In this document: positions 1 to 16,154 of the stretch, piece after piece | Layout: every line of letters starts with the position of its first letter | Position numbering within the stretch: position 1 is the first letter of the stretch | DNA from: a virus | Taxonomy: Duplodnaviria > Heunggongvirae > Uroviricota > Caudoviricetes | Virus record (IMG/VR): IMGVR_UViG_2909251562_000002 | Direction: 5' to 3' (one strand) | Length of the DNA: 28,381 bases | Notes under the pieces: model-generated | Databases searched by the model: none | Told to the model about the DNA's origin: nothing | What the model saw: only the letters and a program-made list of their open reading frames with translations | Program-made: the position numbers and the translations under genes

Positions 1-906
1 CTATATTTCCAGACATCTGTTATCACTTAACCCATTACAAGCCCGCTGCCGCAGATATTCCCGTGGCGAGCGATAACCCAGCGCACTATGCGGATGCCAT
101 TCGTTATAATGCTCGAACGCCTCTGCAAGGTTCTTTGCTGCCGTTAACCCGTCTGGTTTGGGCATGATACTGATGTAGTCACGCTTTATCGTTTTCACGA
201 AGCTCTCTGCTATTCCGTTACTCTCCGGACTCCGCATCGCCGTGTTCTTCGGTTCAAGTCCCAACATCCGGGCGAACTGGCGTGTTTCATTAGCCCGGTA
301 GCATGAACCATTATCCGTCAGCCACTCCACTGGAGACGACGGAAGATCGTTGCCGAAGCGGCGTTCCACCGCTCCCAGCATGACGTCCTGTACTGTTTCA
401 CTGTTGAAGTCGCCGGTAGTCACCGCCCAGTGCAGTGCCTCACGATCACAGCAGTCCAGCGCGAACGTGACACGCAGTCTCTCTCCGTTATCACAGCAGA
501 ACTCGAACCCGTCAGAGCACCATCGCTGATTGCTTTCTTTCACGGCCACTCTGCCTGTATGTGCCCGTTTCGATGGCGGTACAGCAGGTTTTCGCTCAAG
601 CAACAGCGCATTCTGGCGCATGATCCGGTAAACACGTTTGGCATTGATCGCAGGCATACCATCAAGTTCTGCCTGTCTGCGAAGCAGCGCCCATACTCGA
701 CGATAACCATACGTGGGCAGCTCTCCGATAACATGGTGTATACGGAGAAGCACATCCGTATCATCAGTGTGACGACTGCGGCGGCCATCCATCCAGTCAT
801 CGGTTCGTCTGAGAATGACGTGCAACTGCGCACGCGACACCCGGAGACAACGGCTGACTAAGCTTACTCCCCATCCCCGGGCAATAAGGGCGCGTGCGCT
901 ATCCAC
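1..906 (-). CDS. insD: IS2 transposase OrfB (InsD), 301 aa
   Basis: ORF-track protein matches IS2 InsD from memory; overlaps insC 3' end; slippery A6G heptamer at about 907-913 on the coding strand. Confidence 0.93.
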
Positions 907-1229
907 TTTTTTGCCCGTCCATATTCAACGGCTTCTTTGAGGAGTTCATTTTCCATCGTTTTCTTGCCGAGCAGGCGCTGGAGTTCTTTAATCTGCTTCA
1001 TGGCGGCAGCAAGTTCAGAGGCAGGAACAACCTGTTCTCCGGCGGCGACAGCAGTAAGACTTCCTTCCTGGTATTGCTTACGCCAGAGAAATAACTGGCT
1101 GGCTGCTACACCATGTTGCCGGGCAACGAGGGAGACCGTCATCCCCGGTTCAAAGCTCTGCTGAACAATTGCGATCTTTTCCTGTGTGGTACGCCGTCTG
1201 CGTTTCTCCGGCCCTAAGACATCAATCAT
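864..1229 (-). CDS. insC: IS2 OrfA (InsC), 121 aa from [13 protein letters not shown]
   Basis: Internal Met of the 136-aa track ORF gives the remembered InsC N-terminus. Confidence 0.9.
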
Positions 1230-1801
1230 CTGTTCTCCAATGACTAGTCTAAAAACTAGTATTAAGACTATCACTTATTTAAGTGATATTGGTTGTCTGG
1301 AGATTCAGGGGGCCAGTCTAGTCCCATATATGCCCCAAAAAAACTCCCCAACAGATAAGTAGTTTTTTCATGGATTTATGCGTAAAATCAAGAACGGCTG
1401 GAAATCATTCAATACTCACACTATCGAAAAATTTACCAGCCAACCGCAGCACGTTCTTGCATAAGGCGTGTCTGCGGTTTTTCAACTATTCAGATACATC
1501 ACTCCCATCACATTCATTCCTCCGCATCAAAGGCATATAGGCTATATCACCTTGATATTTTTCTTTTTCAGATAAAAACTGTTATCTATGTATACTTTTA
1601 AACCCAATCCGTGTAGAGTCTCTGCATAAGATAGTTTGCAGTTGCCGCTTCAGCTTGCGCCATAAACCGCCTGATTTTTGCTGCCACCAGTTAGCATTCC
1701 TGTATACCTGAAACGACAATGTTTATCTACGAACTTTAAGAACACCCAGGATAAAAATTGTCAACTATATCATATATAACACATTACTAATTCGAGGCTA
1801 T

Positions 1802-6744: not shown

Positions 6745-7299
6745 TCAGAATTTATAACCAACACCAACGATGAACCCGTCAGTGCGCCAGTCGCCACTGC
6801 CGGAGCCTTCATAAGCGACATCAATGGCCACGGATTCGGTCGGGTTAAACTGCACGCCAGCCCCCCACGCCAGAGACGTGTTGCTGTGGCGACCGTCATC
6901 ACTTCCGGTCAGCACATCGTGCGTTTTCCCCTTGTTGTCAGTTACGCGGAGATAATCTCCGGAGAAAGTCGACACACGGCTGTAAGCCATACCCGCCATC
7001 GCATACGCGCTGAACCATTCATTCACGCGCACAGACGGCCCCGCCATTACGCTGAACCAGCGGTTACGAACGGAATCTTCATGCCAGCGGGTATCGCTGT
7101 AACGGGTCAGCTGGCGATTCTTGTCTCCTGCATAGCTGAATGACGTCACCATCCCCAGTGTGTCCGTAAACTCATAGCGGTATTTCACGTTAATCCCGTT
7201 CAGATCATCGCTGCCGGGAACGTTCGTCGAGGCATGAAGATACCCCGCGCTCAGCGTGGCCTGCTGCTCAGACGCCCATGCAGGCGCACCGGATACCAG
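6745..7299 (-). pseudogene. lom: lom (Ail/Lom outer-membrane protein), 5'-truncated: start codon and most of the signal peptide are missing
   Basis: Translation matches lambda Lom from ...VSGAPAWASEQQATLSAGYLHAS to the C-terminal GVGYKF; upstream in-frame residues diverge from Lom and hit a stop at 7333-7335. Confidence 0.85.
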
Positions 7300-7573
7300 T
7301 CCTTTCTCTCTTTCGGCTCCATACGGGATGGATCATGAACAGAGTCTGCTGCCTCATGCTTCACACTAAACAGGGCTGGCCCGACATGCTGCAGGGCGTA
7401 AACGGGGTTCCCCCTGACAGTCGCAGCCACAGGAGTGTTGGCCGCGAGAAGCCGTTTTTTTACTGTGTCCCGGTGAAGCCCAAAGGCCTCAGCGATTTTA
7501 AAAACACTCCAGTAATAAGCATCACCGATCCCGCTCACATTTGACATAAGCAACTCCATCTGGCAGGTGAAAA
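7300..7573 (-). pseudogene. Fragment of a Nu1-like terminase small subunit gene (about 90 N-terminal codons), fused to lom by deletion and separated from its ATG by IS66
   Basis: Segment ...YYWSVFKIAEAFGLHRDTVKKRLLAANTPVAATVRGNPVYAL has the layout of the lambda Nu1 N-terminal helix-turn-helix; the ancestral ATG is at 10282-10284 about 150 bp from the cos-like site. Confidence 0.45.
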
Positions 7574-7626
7574 GTAACCGGCTCATTTAAACCGTCTGGT
7601 CTGTTTCCTCCGGCTCTACAAAAATA

Positions 7627-8304
7627 ATGTCCATCATTTTTAATGGACACTATCGTATGAAACACCGGACCTGGATCACTGAAGCTTTACGTCTTCACTT
7701 TGAAGAACATTTACCCCGGGTTGTGGCCGGGCGTCGCCTGGGTGTACCAAAATCAACAGTTTGTAGTATGTTCGTGCGCTTTCGGAGAGCTGGCCTTTCG
7801 TGGCCTTTGCCCGCAGGCATGTCGGAGCAGGAACTTGATGCCTGCCTTTACGGACAATTTTCCACGGTACCAGTCGTACGTCCTGAAAGCACCGTTATAT
7901 CCGAAGCCCCCGTGGTAAAAAAACGTCCCCGGCGGCCCAACTTCCCTTATGAGTTTAAAATCGCCTTAGTGGAGCAGTCACTGCAGCCCGGAGCCTGTGT
8001 GGCGCAGATCGCCCGGGAAAACGGAATCAACGATAACCTGCTCTTCAACTGGCGCCATCAATACCGGAAAGGTGGCCTGCTGCCTTCCGGAAAAAATATG
8101 CCGGCACTGCTTCCCGTGACGTTAACGCCGGAGCCGGATAATAAAATCCCGGCCCCCGCACAGGAACCAGAGCAGATAAATACACCGTCCGACAGTCTGT
8201 GTTGTGAGCTGGTTCTGCCGGCCGGAACTCTCAGGCTTAAAGGTAAACTGACGCCGGCGTTATTACAGACACTTATCCGCGAAATAAAAGGGAGCAGCCA
8301 CTGA
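7627..8304 (+). CDS. IS66-family accessory protein TnpA (orf1), 225 aa
   Basis: C-terminal region (KIALVEQSLQPGACVAQIARENGINDNLLFNWRHQYRKG) is typical of IS66 orf1; stop overlaps the tnpB ATG (TGATG). An internal start at 7657 is possible. Confidence 0.75.
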   Translation: MSIIFNGHYRMKHRTWITEALRLHFEEHLPRVVAGRRLGVPKSTVCSMFVRFRRAGLSWPLPAGMSEQELDACLYGQFSTVPVVRPESTVISEAPVVKKRPRRPNFPYEFKIALVEQSLQPGACVAQIARENGINDNLLFNWRHQYRKGGLLPSGKNMPALLPVTLTPEPDNKIPAPAQEPEQINTPSDSLCCELVLPAGTLRLKGKLTPALLQTLIREIKGSSH

Positions 8305-8651
8305 TGATATCTCTCCCTGCAGGTTCGCGTATCTGGCTGGTTGCAGGTATCACCGATATGCGAAATGGCTTTAACGGCCTGGCATCAAAAGTTCAGAACG
8401 TCCTGAAGGATGACCCGTTCTCCGGACACCTGTTCATCTTCCGCGGACGCCGGGGTGACCAGATAAAAGTGTTGTGGGCTGACAGTGACGGACTGTGCCT
8501 CTTCACCAAACGCCTGGAGCGGGGCCGCTTCGTCTGGCCAGTCACCCGTGACGGCAAGGTGCACCTTACTCCGGCTCAGTTATCCATGCTTCTTGAAGGT
8601 ATCAACTGGAAGCACCCGAAACGAACGGAACGCGCTGGAATCCGCATATAA
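8304..8651 (+). CDS. IS66-family TnpB (orf2), 115 aa
   Basis: Conserved IS66 orf2 sequence (MISLPAGSRIWLVAGITDMRNGFNGL...). Confidence 0.9.
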   Translation: MISLPAGSRIWLVAGITDMRNGFNGLASKVQNVLKDDPFSGHLFIFRGRRGDQIKVLWADSDGLCLFTKRLERGRFVWPVTRDGKVHLTPAQLSMLLEGINWKHPKRTERAGIRI

Positions 8652-8670
8652 CCCGTTGTAAAGTGAGGAT

Positions 8671-10242
8671 ATGGACACCTCACTTGCTCATGAGAACGCC
8701 CGCCTGCGGGCACTGTTGCAGACGCAACAGGACACCATCCGCCAGATGGCTGAATACAACCGCCTGCTCTCACAGCGGGTGGCGGCTTATGCTTCCGAAA
8801 TCAACCGGCTGAAGGCGCTGGTTGCGAAACTGCAACGTATGCAGTTCGGTAAAAGCTCAGAAAAACTTCGTGCAAAAACCGAACGGCAGATACAGGAAGC
8901 ACAGGAGCGAATCAGCGCACTTCAGGAAGAAATGGCGGAAACGCTGGGTGAGCAATATGACCCGGTACTGCCATCCGCCCTGCGCCAGTCTTCAGCCCGT
9001 AAACCGTTACCGGCCTCACTTCCCCGTGAAACCCGGGTTATCCGGCCGGAAGAGGAATGCTGTCCTGCCTGTGGTGGTGAACTCAGTTCTCTGGGATGTG
9101 ATGTGTCAGAGCAACTGGAGCTTATCAGCAGCGCCTTTAAGGTTATCGAAACACAACGTCCGAAACTGGCCTGTTGTCGGTGCGACCATATCGTGCAGGC
9201 ACCAGTACCTTCAAAACCCATTGCACGCAGTTATGCCGGAGCGGGGCTCCTGGCCCATGTCGTCACCGGAAAATATGCAGACCATCTGCCGTTATACCGC
9301 CAGTCAGAGATATACCGCCGTCAGGGTGTGGAGCTGAGCCGTGCCACACTGGGGCGCTGGACAGGTGCCGTTGCTGAACTACTGGAGCCGCTGTATGACG
9401 TCCTGCGCCAGTATGTGCTGATGCCCGGTAAAGTCCATGCTGATGATATCCCCGTCCCGGTCCAGGAGCCGGGCAGCGGTAAAACCCGGACAGCCCGGCT
9501 GTGGGTCTACGTCCGTGATGACCGTAACGCCGGTTCACAGATGCCCCCGGCGGTCTGGTTCGCGTACAGTCCGGACCGGAAAGGTATCCATCCACAAAAT
9601 CACCTGGCCGGTTACAGCGGTGTGCTTCAGGCCGATGCTTACGGTGGTTACCGGGCGTTATACGAATCCGGCAGAATAACGGAAGCCGCGTGTATGGCTC
9701 ATGCCCGGAGAAAAATCCACGATGTGCATGCAAGAGCGCCCACCGACATCACCACGGAAGCCCTGCAGCGTATCGGTGAACTGTATGCCATCGAGGCAGA
9801 GGTCCGGGGCTGTTCAGCAGAACAGCGTCTGGCGGCAAGAAAAACCAGAGCCGCGCCACTGATGCAGTCACTGTATGACTGGATACAGCAACAGATGAAA
9901 ACACTGTCGCGTCACTCAGATACGGCAAAAGCGTTCGCATACCTGCTGAAACAGTGGGATGCACTGAACGTGTACTGCAGTAATGGCTGGGTGGAAATCG
10001 ACAACAACATCGCAGAGAACGCCTTACGGGGAGTGGCCGTAGGCCGGAAAAAGTGGATGTTCGCGGGTTCCGACAGCGGTGGTGAACATGCGGCGGTGTT
10101 GTACTCGCTGATCGGCACATGCCGTCTGAACAATGTGGAGCCAGAAAAGTGGCTGCGCTACGTCATTGAACATATCCAGGACTGGCCGGCAAACCGGGTA
10201 CGCGATCTGTTGCCCTGGAAAGTTGATCTGAGCTCTCAGTAA
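8671..10242 (+). CDS. IS66-family transposase TnpC (orf3), 523 aa
   Basis: N-terminal leucine zipper, CPACGG...C...CxxC zinc motif and catalytic region; ATG with GTGAGGA upstream. Confidence 0.9.
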
Positions 10243-10434
10243 ATATCAATACGGTTCTGACGAGCCGCTTACGGTGAAAATCATGTTTATTTATATATTT
10301 CAATTAATTGTAAACTGGTCTAATGACAGGGAGAAAAAAATATTGTACAGGTAAAAAGATAAATAACTTTTAATTATCAATAAATTACCAAACATGCTGC
10401 CGCCGCCATGGAAATGCAAAAACTAGCCTTTTTC

Positions 10435-10455
10435 CGCGACGCTCCCGCCCCGTGG
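10435..10455 (-). other. Candidate cos site (cosN-like) of the prophage
   Basis: Minus strand reads ACGGGGCGGGAGCGTCGCGG against lambda ACGGGGCGGCGACCTCGCGG (15 of 20, from memory); lies about 150 bp upstream of the Nu1-like ATG, as in lambda. Confidence 0.35.
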
Positions 10456-10630
10456 CAGGGGCCCCCACCGGGAGGACCCGACAGCCTGACAGCCGTGATG
10501 AGCATCTGATACAGCGCTTTACATAATGGCATAGGAATAATTCAGAAGGACATCACAGCATGCCCACACAAATTAGTGTGAGTGTCCTGTTTCTTCCTAC
10601 GCACAGGACTGACGAGCATGAGGGGAAAAT

Positions 10631-10798
10631 ATGCGAACCATAAATGCCTCATCTTCAGCAATGCAACCGGCATCCGAACAGGACGATATTGTAAATTCAC
10701 CTAATTACGAGGACATTGCAGTAGTTGAATTGCAGCTCTGTATTAGCCTGACAGTGACAGAATGCGATATTGACTCTGTCACAGGTGAAATAGTTTGA
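10631..10798 (+). CDS. Hypothetical small acidic protein, 55 aa
   Basis: Manual translation (MRTINASSSAMQPASEQDDIVNSPNYEDIAVVELQL...); GAGGGGA ribosome-binding site 5 nt upstream of the ATG. Confidence 0.35.
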   Translation: MRTINASSSAMQPASEQDDIVNSPNYEDIAVVELQLCISLTVTECDIDSVTGEIV

Positions 10799-10818
10799 AT
10801 GATTAGCAGTTATGGTGC

Positions 10819-11025
10819 TCAGTCAACCACCAGGGAATAATCCTTCGAATTCTTATCGTGCTTCACCAACGCTGCCTCAATTGCCCTGAATGCTTCCAGA
10901 GACACCTGATGTTCTATACATGCAATTACAACATCCGGGTAACTCATAGAAATGGTGCTATTAAGCATATTTTTTACACGAATCAGATCCAACGAGAGTT
11001 CATCAGCAGATTGTTCTTTATTCAT
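10819..11025 (-). CDS. Hypothetical small prophage protein, 68 aa
   Basis: ORF track; non-repetitive protein-like composition; family not recognised. Confidence 0.4.
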
Positions 11026-12550: not shown

Positions 12551-12755
12551 TCATTTTCACTTTTTTAAATCCAACGACAGACGGCTGGCATTTAAGTATT
12601 GTGAAATATTATCAAATGTAATCATCATTGATTTACAAAAGATACATTTTGCCCCGAAAGGATTCATGTCAGAAACATCAAAAGATGATGTTCTATACTG
12701 GGAACCATGACAACACGGGCATCTAAAGTGAATATGGTTTGTAATATTGTCTACC

Positions 12756-12968
12756 TCAAAGCGCCACTACATGAACAGCGGCAGGACCTTTAGGTCCGTT
12801 CTCAATACCAAATTCAACTTCCTGATTCTCAGTTAATGTTTTGAAATCGTTGCTCTGAATTGCTGAGAAATGGACAAACACATCTTTGCTGCCATCTTTC
12901 GGCGTGATGAAACCAAAACCTTTTTCAGGGTTAAACCATTTCACTAAACCAGTCATTTTGTTAGACAT
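12756..12968 (-). CDS. cspI: Cold shock protein (CspA family), 70 aa
   Basis: [34 protein letters not shown] with RNP1/RNP2 motifs; matches CspI from memory. Confidence 0.9.
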
Positions 12969-13329
12969 AATTATTACCTTTTGAAGAAATTAGCCCTTGG
13001 GCAGAATGGTCCGAAAAAAATATCAGAGAGAAAAACCAACAAGGAAATCTCAAGAGGTACAAATAATAAAATTATAACAATGACTGCTTCAGATAAATTT
13101 GTAACAAACCAGAACACCATTAACGCATGATTAACCACCCATAGCAAGGATTACTTTTGTAAAGAAAAACACAGCAATGAAAGAATAGCTTTATTTATTA
13201 ATAAAACGTGTCATTCTGATTAAGACCTTTTATCTTACCCTTAAGATTTCAGGAATTTTGGCTCATGGAAGAGTCCTTTTTATTCAAATTTTACATTCCG
13301 CGATGTAAATGTTCCGATTTAATATTACC

Positions 13330-15356: not shown

Positions 15357-15638
15357 TGAGATTGTGGTGCTTTTTGTGGGAGTCATCCACTTACGCACTT
15401 TGTTTTGCCATGCCAGCAGTTAGCTTCTGCTGTAAAACTATTCATGCAGCAAACCTGCACTTCACCACAATGGTTAGCATACTTTTCCTGATTAAGATTT
15501 TGCCAAATATGCTAGCCATTGTTTCATGTATTGGACCTCCTTACTTTTTATTAAAGAGATCCAATATTCACTACTCTGTCCGTATCTCTACTCAGGCATC
15601 AGCCTTCTTCGTTATCGTATACAGACGAGCGATGAATT

Positions 15639-15854
15639 TTAATCAGTAATGATGACATTTGCTGCTGCAGGACCTTTAGCACCACTCTCTATAGAGAAGG
15701 TAACCTTTTGACCTTCAAATAAGGTTCGATAATTATCATTCTGAATCGCAGAAAAATGCACAAACACATCTTTACTACCATCAACAGGAGAAATAAAGCC
15801 GAAACCTTTATCAGCGTTAAACCATTTTACTAAACCAGTCATTTTATTTGACAT
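15639..15854 (-). CDS. cspB: Cold shock protein CspB, 71 aa
   Basis: [34 protein letters not shown]; long AT-rich upstream leader. Confidence 0.93.
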
Positions 15855-16154
15855 TCTACATTCCTTAACTTGAGCCTTTCGGCATAAATGGTTTGCATAA
15901 CAGAAACGACTTCGTACTTAATTGGAGAGACTCAAAGAAGGAATAAGTGAATAACACCTGAAATGAGAACTGCTTTAGTAAACTACTTCGTATATCGTCT
16001 GTTCTTCAAACCGACGCAATCATTAACGCATAGTTGAACATATGAAGCAATGTTTATTTTAGACATCCAGCCATCTTCAACCCCATCAAAAAACTATAGC
16101 TTTCTTCAGGAACGTGTGTATAGTGCGCCAAGTTATCAGTATTAAGGAATTTTT

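What the first reader, a model, noticed from the sequence alone, without database searches (positions are those of the whole stretch)
10281..10455. Divergent cos-like site retained next to the interrupted terminase gene
On the minus strand ACGGGGCGGGAGCGTCGCGG resembles lambda cosN in 15 of 20 positions (lambda sequence from memory). It has the expected spacing to the Nu1-like start, with an AT-rich stretch between. The central five differing bases would change the cohesive end, so this may be a distinct cos type or a decayed site.
Basis: partly seen in the sequence, partly recalled or inferred. Interest (0 to 1): 0.45.

Follow-up and report, generated by a model that had tools for sequence, protein, structure and literature searches.

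The report
Orphaned cos site of lambdoid prophage
This is a genuine DNA-packaging (cos) site of a common E. coli lambda-like phage type whose sticky end differs from lambda's at four bases; it has been left stranded in a decayed Qin-like prophage and is an ordinary, already documented sequence.

Summary
The motif is real. ACGGGGCGGGAGCGTCGCGG lies on the minus strand at 10434-10453 and matches lambda cosN plus flanks at 16 of 20 positions, not 15. Chance gives about 0.005 such matches per window.

It is not a decayed lambda cos. From 44 bp upstream of the predicted nick to bp 90 it is identical to the genome ends of phage Tritos, which forms plaques. The record of the inducible phage cdtI also starts with GGGCGGGAGCGT and ends with ...CCACG.

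[quoted passage not shown] Feiss and colleagues report that natural variation there is common and tolerated. The heptamer GGGTCCT, which I take to be cosQ, the flanking CG dinucleotides and an IHF consensus at bp 64-76 are all present.

A 2699-bp IS66-family element with an 8-bp target duplication sits at bp 171-178, upstream of the terS start codon and not inside the gene. With it removed, the start codon falls at bp 197, as in Tritos and cdtI (lambda: 191).

The small terminase is a DUF1441 protein, only remotely related to Nu1. It is cut after codon 85 and joined to lom, and the large terminase gene is gone. The 121-bp core occurs in 2103 of 5426 complete E. coli genomes. Low novelty.

The parts
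10473..10479 (-). GGGTCCT heptamer, which I take to be cosQ (the packaging-termination signal). It starts 29 nt upstream of the predicted top-strand nick.
   Evidence: This is the only invariant upstream block in a sample of lambda-like cos sites. It lies at -30 in lambda-type sites and at -29 in all 12 sites with this cosN. PMC4669245 describes a 7-bp, highly conserved cosQ. That this heptamer is cosQ rests on my own knowledge of the lambda coordinates.
10437..10452 (-). cosN: CG|GGGCGGGAGCGT|CG, the nicking site with the two conserved flanking CG dinucleotides.
   Evidence: Eight of 16 positions are twofold symmetric, against 10 of 16 in lambda. The flanking CG dinucleotides are the conserved feature described in PMC4669245.
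10439..10450 (-). Predicted 12-nt 5' cohesive end, GGGCGGGAGCGT. Lambda has GGGCGGCGACCT; the differences are at bp 7, 8, 9 and 11.
   Evidence: The Tritos (OV696610.1) and cdtI (AB285204.1) records begin with exactly these 12 bases and end with ...CCACG. The nick positions themselves are inferred by homology and were not measured here.
10273..10438 (-). cosB region, bp 13-178, still contiguous with cosN. It is AT-rich from bp 57 onward.
   Evidence: It differs from Tritos at 5 positions and from an intact E. coli prophage at 1 position. A+T is 79% over bp 57-170.
10375..10387 (-). IHF consensus TAATTTATTGATA (YAANNNNTTGATW) at bp 64-76, a candidate counterpart of lambda's I1 site.
   Evidence: The consensus is not significant window-wide (3 matches, 2 expected). 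However, it is found at bp 62 or 64 in 87 of 106 related cos regions, across cosB classes whose flanks have diverged.
10348..10357 (-). First copy of a 10-nt direct repeat (TTTTCACCTG in Tritos, TTTTTACCTG here), bp 94-103. It is a candidate TerS-binding element.
   Evidence: The T variant is shared with an intact prophage. This is inference only; no lambda-like R3/R2/R1 pattern was found.
10273..10280 (.). 8-bp target-site duplication (GGTGAAAA on +, TTTTCACC on -), cos-proximal copy, bp 171-178.
7574..10272 (+). IS66-family insertion sequence, 2699 bp. It carries tnpA (7627-8304), tnpB (8304-8651) and tnpC (8671-10242), with imperfect terminal inverted repeats that begin GTAA.
   Evidence: Pfam HTH_Tnp_1, TnpB_IS66 and DDE_Tnp_IS66, RefSeq annotation, ends and inverted repeats.
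7566..7573 (.). Second copy of the 8-bp target duplication, terS-proximal. Together with 7564-7565 it forms the second TTTTCACCTG repeat.
7293..7547 (-). Remnant of the small terminase gene, codons 1-85 of 175 (DUF1441 / phrog_141). The ATG at 7547 equals cos bp 197 once the IS is removed.
   Evidence: It is identical in protein sequence to the terS of an intact prophage up to ...KDWY and then diverges.
6745..7292 (-). lom/ail-family gene, joined to the terS remnant by a deletion that removed the rest of terS, terL and the intervening head and tail genes.
   Evidence: Pfam Ail_Lom 8.6e-87, covering profile positions 53-199 only; sequence at the junction; annotation.

Best explanation
This is the cos site (cosQ-cosN-cosB) of a lambda-like temperate phage of the Tritos/cdtI type, sitting in a defective Qin-like E. 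coli prophage. In the parent phage a gpA-family large terminase would be positioned by a DUF1441-type small terminase bound to the AT-rich cosB, probably with an IHF bend at bp 64-76. It would nick cosN on both strands 12 bp apart, giving 5' cohesive ends GGGCGGGAGCGT. DNA would then be packaged in the direction of terS, which in the window means towards lower coordinates. GGGTCCT, 29 bp upstream, would signal termination at the next cos. In this window the site is orphaned. An IS66-family element has inserted at bp 171-178 of cos, between cosB and the terS start. terS is cut after codon 85 and fused to lom, and terL and the head genes are gone, so the prophage cannot use the site itself. Shown here: sequence identity to phage genome ends, the conserved subsites, the IS boundaries and the deletion. 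Inferred: the nick positions, the 12-nt overhang, IHF and TerS binding, and the packaging direction.
For: The match is 16/20 to lambda cosN, at 0.005 expected per window. It is identical to Tritos from 44 bp upstream of the nick to bp 90. The Tritos and cdtI records start at GGGCGGGAGCGT and end at ...CCACG, with terS at bp 197. Tritos makes virions and plaques on K-12 (PMC9928086). Removing the IS restores the Tritos and cdtI spacing exactly, with the ATG at bp 197. The reconstructed -80 to +430 region differs by 1 nt from a prophage with full terS, terL and portal. Tritos TerL has Pfam GpA_ATPase and GpA_nuclease domains and is 24% identical to lambda gpA, E 1e-21. TerS is phrog_141 'terminase small subunit', with reciprocal weak hits to Nu1's phrog_57. 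GGGTCCT lies at -29 or -30 in 84 of 126 sampled sites. All differences from lambda are at bp 7-12, where natural variation is reported as common and phenotypically mild; N15 differs at 9 and 12, Gifsy-1 at 8, 9 and 11 (PMC4669245). K-12's Qin prophage carries a lambda-identical cos plus nohA at the syntenic position, so a cos is expected here.
Against: I saw no experimental determination of the termini for this cos type. The Asakura 2007, Casjens & Gilcrease 2009 and Vahanian 2017 papers were not available, and the Tritos paper does not say how the record's ends were chosen. The cosB shows no lambda-like R3-I1-R2-R1 repeat pattern, so the TerS binding sites are unknown. The IHF consensus alone is not statistically significant. 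The cosQ-to-nick spacing is 1 bp shorter than in lambda.
Confidence: 0.9

Rival explanations
1. It is a decayed, non-functional relic of a lambda-type cos, and the four central differences are mutations accumulated after the prophage died.
For: The prophage is clearly defective, with an IS66 insertion, a truncated terS and no terL. K-12's syntenic Qin prophage carries the lambda-type cosN.
Against: The same 12-mer with the same flanks is found at the ends of two phage genomes, in more than 120 IMG/VR contigs, and in an intact prophage that differs by 1 nt over 510 bp. It is linked to a different TerS family from lambda's. It is therefore a separate lineage, not a mutated lambda site.
Confidence: 0.03
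2. The cos core is intact, but the site has been functionally inactivated by the IS66 insertion. The insertion separates bp 1-178 from bp 179-196 and the terS 5' region, and disrupts the second TTTTCACCTG repeat. Even a cognate helper terminase could then not use it.
For: The target duplication coincides with the second copy of the only exact 10-nt repeat in cosB. In N15 an accessory TerS site lies within the terS gene (PMC4669245), so distal elements can matter.
Against: In lambda the distal R1 element has only a non-essential, accessory role (PMC4669245). Eight of the 10 bases of the repeat are retained next to cos because of the duplication. cosQ, cosN, the IHF consensus and bp 13-178 are untouched. 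No data exist on which cosB elements this TerS needs.
Confidence: 0.3
3. It is a chance G+C-rich resemblance with no relation to packaging.
Against: The expected count is 0.005 per window. The site also shows correct synteny (lysis genes, then cos, then terS), correct spacing to terS, a conserved GGGTCCT heptamer, and identity to phage genome termini.
Confidence: 0.005
4. It is the cos of a phage-inducible chromosomal island (PICI) or another satellite that hijacks a helper's terminase, rather than the cos of a phage.
For: Gram-negative PICIs carry lambda-like cosN sites with their own cosB (PMC9026076).
Against: The downstream gene is a phage terS (phrog_141/DUF1441), not an rpp-type gene. 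The neighbourhood is the late region of a Qin-like lambdoid prophage: Q, lysis genes, cspI, gnsB, then lom and tail fibre. The same cos-terS-terL-portal block occurs in complete phages.
Confidence: 0.01

Closest known systems
cos of Escherichia phages Tritos (OV696610.1) and cdtI (AB285204.1)
   Same: The 12-nt end, the flanking CG dinucleotides and the GGGTCCT heptamer are identical. The first 90 bp match Tritos exactly, and the TerS N-terminal 85 residues and the 197-bp distance to the terS ATG are the same.
   Different: In the window the site is interrupted at bp 171-178 by an IS66-family element. There are 5 substitutions relative to Tritos in bp 91-167, and the cognate terminase genes are destroyed.
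Phage lambda cos (cosQ-cosN-cosB with Nu1 and A)
   Same: Same layout and orientation. It shares the GGGTCCT heptamer about 30 bp upstream, the CG|GGGCGG left half and CG right flank, an AT-rich cosB with an IHF consensus, a terS start about 190-197 bp from bp 1, and a gpA-family TerL in relatives.
   Different: The cohesive end differs at bp 7, 8, 9 and 11. The heptamer spacing is 29 rather than 30. cosB is unrelated in sequence and lacks the R3/R2/R1 repeat pattern. TerS is DUF1441, not Phage_Nu1.
Natural cosN variants of lambda-like phages (N15, phiD326, Gifsy-1, mEp213/LLS), as described by Feiss and co-workers
   Same: Variation is confined to bp 7-12 of the cohesive end, with a conserved left half, flanking CG dinucleotides and cosQ (PMC4669245). 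mEp213 and LLS, with GGGCGGCGCGCT, also pair a variant cosN with a DUF1441-type TerS (PMC12315714).
   Different: This variant has four differences from lambda, against 2-3 in the cited examples. I could not check whether this exact 12-mer is listed in Vahanian et al. 2017.
Orphan cos with truncated nohA in the cryptic prophage Qin of E. coli K-12
   Same: Same prophage backbone and position, in the order essQ/rrrQ/rzpQ, cspI, ynfN, gnsB, DUF1398 gene, cos, truncated terS, tail-fibre genes. In both cases a cos survives beside a truncated small-terminase gene.
   Different: K-12 Qin has a lambda-identical cosQ/cosN/cosB and a Phage_Nu1-family NohA. The window has the GGGCGGGAGCGT cosN, a DUF1441 TerS and an IS66 insertion.

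Membership tests
[quoted passage not shown] | 12-nt 5'-protruding cohesive ends produced by staggered nicks | not testable with these tools
   Only indirect support is available. Two phage records are opened exactly at the predicted top-strand nick. No terminus experiment could be read.
[quoted passage not shown] | Conserved left half of the end (GGGCGG) and CG dinucleotides flanking both nick positions, with variation tolerated at bp 7-12 | tested here: met
   The site reads CG|GGGCGG GAGCGT|CG, and all four differences from lambda fall at bp 7, 8, 9 and 11. The criterion comes from PMC4669245.
[quoted passage not shown] | Conserved 7-bp cosQ about 30 bp upstream of cosN | tested here: met
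   GGGTCCT lies at 10473-10479, at offset 29. Lambda-type sites have offset 30, and all 12 sampled sites with this cosN have 29. That the heptamer is cosQ rests on my knowledge of the lambda coordinates plus its invariance in the sample.
[quoted passage not shown] | Complex cosB with R3-I1-R2-R1 (three TerS sites, R2 inverted, IHF site between R3 and R2) or simple N15-type cosB | tested here: inconclusive
   An IHF consensus at bp 64-76 is conserved in position across cosB classes. The method that recovers lambda's R3/R2/R1 finds only two direct TTTTCACCTG copies, at bp 94 and 171, and no inverted copy.
[quoted passage not shown] | Adjacent terS then gpA-family terL, with terS starting about 190 bp from bp 1 | tested here: met
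   The terS ATG is at bp 197 after removing the IS. terL is deleted in the window, but it is gpA-family in Tritos and in the near-identical intact prophage.
Phage_Nu1 (PF07471) small terminase family | Match to the Pfam Phage_Nu1 model above its gathering score | tested here: not met
   The window fragment and Tritos TerS hit only DUF1441 (PF07278), whereas lambda Nu1 and K-12 NohA hit Phage_Nu1. BLASTP against Nu1 is not significant. Only reciprocal weak PHROG cross-hits, 1e-9 and 5.6e-8, link the two.
IS66 family insertion sequences | tnpA, tnpB and tnpC (DDE_Tnp_IS66) genes, terminal inverted repeats starting GTAA, 8-bp target duplication | tested here: met
   Pfam hits; inverted repeats GTAACCGGCTC / GTAAGCGGCTC and duplication GGTGAAAA. 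The family hallmarks are from my own knowledge.

The most novel reading that the evidence does not exclude
The orphan cos may still be recognised in trans by the terminase of an incoming or co-resident Tritos/cdtI-type phage with the same cosB/TerS class. The chromosome would then be nicked here and packaging would start towards lower coordinates (IS66, lom, tail-fibre genes and host DNA beyond). That would give doc-type particles or transduction of flanking DNA, or would act as a decoy that drains a superinfecting phage's terminase. The evidence does not exclude this: cosQ, cosN and bp 13-178 of cosB are essentially identical to those of intact relatives. It does not support it either. The 121-bp core occurs only once in the one genome that matches the 658-bp test segment (window 10243-10900) at 100%, so no resident helper with this cos was seen there.
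Probability: 0.2. Interest if true: 0.35.

Novelty: already known. Interest (0 to 1): 0.1.

Why it matters
It matters little beyond annotation. The result fixes where this defective prophage's packaging module begins. It shows that the prophage is a Qin-type backbone carrying a different packaging cassette from K-12's Qin: a DUF1441 TerS with a GGGCGGGAGCGT end, rather than Nu1/NohA with lambda's end. It also adds one more example of the established rule that lambda-like cohesive ends vary only in their right half. Two small open points came up. The TerS-binding elements of DUF1441-type cosB regions are not defined. And one cosQ-cosN core is joined to at least three different cosB/TerS classes, the same kind of modular swapping seen between lambda and phage 21.

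Tried and rejected
- **Literature search for the 12-mer.** A full-text search for GGGCGGGAGCGT gave one irrelevant hit, a mammalian promoter paper.
- **Papers not held.** Asakura 2007 (cdtI), Casjens & Gilcrease 2009 and Vahanian 2017 (the cosN survey) could not be read. I therefore could not learn how the cdtI ends were determined or whether this variant is tabulated.
- **Tritos paper.** It does not state how the record's ends were chosen.
- **Repeat search.** It recovers lambda's R3, R2 and R1 but finds no equivalent triplet in the Tritos-type cosB. I dropped the idea of a lambda-style R3-I1-R2-R1 architecture as unproven.
- **IHF consensus.** It is not enriched in the window (3 found, 2 expected). 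Only its positional conservation supports it.
- **Single-strand folding of the cosQ-cosN segment.** It is no more stable than shuffles, z = 0.56.
- **Rfam.** No RNA family matches at cos.
- **Promoter and terminator scan of 10200-10900.** Nothing above chance.
- **PDB sequence search with TerS.** No meaningful hit.
- **IMG/VR contigs ending at the nick.** I looked for these as evidence for termini, but the scans return mostly integrated prophages from isolate genomes and are capped at 120 rows.
- **Gifsy-2.** Its cos region is more divergent, with a different spacing between ACG and CGCGG, and did not help.

Full report
**1. The observation**

The 20-mer ACGGGGCGGGAGCGTCGCGG is on the minus strand at window 10434-10453. 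I compared it with lambda's own sequence from J02459.1 (ACG|GGGCGGCGACCT|CGCGG). It matches at 16 of 20 positions, not 15. The four differences are at bp 7, 8, 9 and 11 of the 12-nt cohesive end.

No other place in the window matches better than 13/20. Shuffled windows give 0.005 matches of at least 16/20. The AT-rich stretch is real, at 79% A+T over bp 57-170.

**2. Surroundings**

The window is a Qin-like defective lambdoid prophage of E. coli, read on the minus strand. The test segment (window 10243-10900) is 100% identical to NZ_CP145679.1. The gene order is:

- Q antiterminator, cspB/cspF and the lysis genes (essD, ydfR, rrrQ, rzpQ)
- cspI, ynfN, gnsB, a DUF1398 gene and a ybcW-like ORF
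- the cos-like site
- an IS66-family element
- a small-terminase remnant
- lom, then a tail-fibre gene

DicF RNA and two cspA-type thermoregulator leaders confirm the Qin-type backbone. In K-12 the syntenic position of Qin, between ydfO/ynfO and nohA, holds a cos identical to lambda's, followed by the Phage_Nu1-family NohA. A cos is therefore expected at exactly this place. Here it belongs to a different packaging cassette.

**3. The insertion and the deletion**

The IS occupies 7574-10272 (2699 bp). It encodes tnpA, tnpB and tnpC (Pfam HTH_Tnp_1, TnpB_IS66, DDE_Tnp_IS66). Its imperfect terminal inverted repeats begin GTAA, and it is flanked by an 8-bp duplication, GGTGAAAA, at 7566-7573 and 10273-10280.

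Removing the IS and one duplication copy gives a continuous sequence in which the terS ATG (window 7547) lies at bp 197 from cos bp 1. That is exactly the position in phages Tritos and cdtI; lambda's is 191. The IS is therefore in the distal part of cosB, 18 bp upstream of the start codon, and not inside the terminase ORF.

Separately, terS is homologous to intact copies only through codon 85 of 175 (...KDWY). It is then joined to lom within the part of lom that would encode its signal peptide. terL, the portal gene and the intervening head and tail genes are absent.

**4. What the site is**

The record of Escherichia phage Tritos (OV696610.1) begins GGGCGGGAGCGTCGCGGAAAAAGG... and ends ...CCCGGTGGGGGCCCCTGCCACG. 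The window is identical to it from 44 bp upstream of the nick to bp 90, and has 5 substitutions between bp 91 and 167.

Tritos is an active prophage of strain LF82. It produces virions, was seen as a siphovirus and formed a plaque on a K-12 indicator (PMC9928086). The phage cdtI record (AB285204.1) also starts with the same 12-mer, ends in ...GCCACG, and encodes a 100% identical TerS at bp 197.

An apparently intact prophage in E. coli STS63-2-E has full-length DUF1441 terS, terL and portal genes. It differs from the reconstructed window sequence at one base over -80 to +430. The site is therefore not a degraded lambda cos. It is the normal cos of a distinct and common lineage.

The 121-bp core is found in 2103 of 5426 complete E. 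coli genomes.

**5. Subsites**

*cosN.* The site reads CG|GGGCGGGAGCGT|CG. It keeps the left half and both flanking CG dinucleotides, which Feiss and colleagues report as conserved. It differs only at bp 7-12, where they report frequent natural variation and weak phenotypes: N15 differs at 9 and 12, Gifsy-1 at 8, 9 and 11 (PMC4669245). Eight of 16 positions are twofold symmetric, against 10 of 16 in lambda.

*cosQ.* GGGTCCT lies at 10473-10479. I sampled IMG/VR sites matching ACGGGGCGGNNNNNNCGCGG. In that sample this heptamer is the only invariant upstream block. It lies 30 nt from the nick in lambda-type sites and 29 nt in all 12 sites with this cosN.

*cosB.* An IHF consensus (TAATTTATTGATA, bp 64-76) is present. 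It is not significant on its own. However, it sits at bp 62 or 64 in 87 of 106 related cos regions, including classes whose flanking cosB sequence is unrelated.

The analysis that recovers lambda's R3, R2 and R1 finds only two direct copies of TTTTCACCTG in this cosB, at bp 94 and 171. The first copy carries a C-to-T change here that is shared with the intact prophage. The second copy is the IS target. The TerS binding sites remain undefined.

**6. The enzymes**

The TerS remnant and Tritos TerS are Pfam DUF1441 and PHROG phrog_141 ('terminase small subunit'). Lambda Nu1 and K-12 NohA are Phage_Nu1 / phrog_57. BLASTP between the two families is not significant, but each hits the other's PHROG profile weakly (1e-9 and 5.6e-8). 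'Nu1-like' is therefore correct by position and remote homology, not by family membership.

Tritos TerL has GpA_ATPase and GpA_nuclease domains and is 24% identical to lambda gpA, E 1e-21. This fits lambda-type staggered nicking.

**7. Modularity**

In the IMG/VR sample, GGGCGGGAGCGT is the second commonest right-half variant after lambda's. Many other right-half variants precede DUF1441 TerS genes.

I examined 106 sites with this exact cosN. About 33 have the Tritos-class TerS (at least 90% identity, ATG at bp 197), about 66 have a TerS only about 40% identical, and 6 have none. The cos sequences of the classes are identical up to about bp 35 and then diverge, except around the IHF consensus. 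This is the pattern described for lambda and 21: shared cosQ and cosN with a different cosB and TerS (PMC4669245).

**8. Mechanism and status**

The most likely reading is a lambda-type cos. TerS bound to cosB, probably with an IHF bend, would position a gpA-type TerL. TerL would nick 12 bp apart and produce 5' GGGCGGGAGCGT ends. Packaging would proceed towards terS, which in the window means lower coordinates, and would terminate at the next cosQ-cosN.

Identity, subsites and gene context are shown. The nick positions, the overhang and the protein binding are inferred by homology and from the way two phage records are opened. I could not read any paper that measured the ends.

In this window the site cannot serve its own prophage. 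Whether a cognate helper could still use it is open. The IS removes only the last 18 bp before terS and 2 bases of the second repeat.

A lambda, 21 or phi80 helper would be expected to fail regardless, because specificity lies in cosB-TerS.

**9. Verdict**

This is an ordinary sequence already present in public records, namely the cos of Tritos/cdtI-type phages. It follows the published rule for natural cosN variation, and it is orphaned in a cryptic prophage in the same way as the cos-nohA remnant of K-12 Qin. Interest is low.

Noticed in passing
window 7564-7573 and 10273-10280 (IS66 target), 10348-10357: The 8-bp IS66 target duplication (TTTTCACC on the minus strand) coincides with the second copy of the only exact 10-nt direct repeat in this cosB (TTTTCACCTG at bp 94 and 171 in Tritos). 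The two copies lie inside a loosely duplicated segment of about 43 bp with 77-bp spacing (bp 63-105 and 140-182).
   Followed up: partly
related loci, e.g. L130 (class A), L129 (class B), L141 (class C); window bp 1-35 of cos = 10416-10450: One identical cosQ-cosN core, including bp 13-35, is joined to at least three unrelated cosB sequences. It is paired with TerS proteins only about 40% identical to each other, with the switch near bp 36. This is modular exchange like that between lambda and 21.
   Followed up: partly
window 10473-10479 vs lambda 48473-48479: The GGGTCCT heptamer is 29 nt from the nick in this and other '...CCACG' cos types, but 30 nt in lambda-type '...TTACG' sites. This is a consistent 1-bp spacing difference of unknown consequence.
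   Followed up: partly
window 6745-7329, minus strand: lom is joined to the terS remnant inside the region that would encode its signal peptide; only ...SGAPAWASEQQ... remains. RefSeq nevertheless calls a 194-aa Ail/Lom protein that starts at a non-canonical codon inside the terS remnant. The protein may not be exported.
   Followed up: no
window 22184-22235 (+); 12729-13113 (-) and 15623-16015 (-): There is a DicF antisense RNA gene (76.7 bits) and two cspA-type thermoregulator leaders, upstream of cspI and cspB. These are typical of the Qin prophage.
   Followed up: no
window 10377-10532, minus strand: A 51-codon ORF runs straight across cosQ and cosN. Equivalent ORFs are annotated as hypothetical proteins in phage HannyBb, whose record is not opened at cos. 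They are probably spurious calls.
   Followed up: no
window 1-1274 and 26852-28023: Transposase genes lie near both ends of the window: an HTH_Tnp_1 ORF at 864-1274, and an rve integrase-core ORF at 27157-28023 just downstream of the prophage integrase. They suggest further IS insertions in or beside the prophage.
   Followed up: no
window 22880-25351 (+): An 823-aa protein has a C-terminal Rv2179c-like 3'-5' exoribonuclease domain and a long N-terminal part with no Pfam match. It lies in the early region of the prophage.
   Followed up: no
L238 (Gifsy-2, NC_010393.1) 290-340: Gifsy-2 also has a DUF1441 TerS, but upstream it shows ...GCCACG GGTGGCTTCGGGCT CGCGGG. That puts 14 nt, not 12, between the conserved ACG and CGCGG, and the left half differs. 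Its real ends would be worth checking.
   Followed up: no
E. coli genome hits H32-H35 (ETEC strains 67-1, TW11681, WS1933D and LR883000): These genomes match the query through the IS66 end at 98.8% identity, with 8 extra bases. The same IS66 insertion at this cos therefore seems to be inherited within a lineage, not unique to one strain.
   Followed up: no
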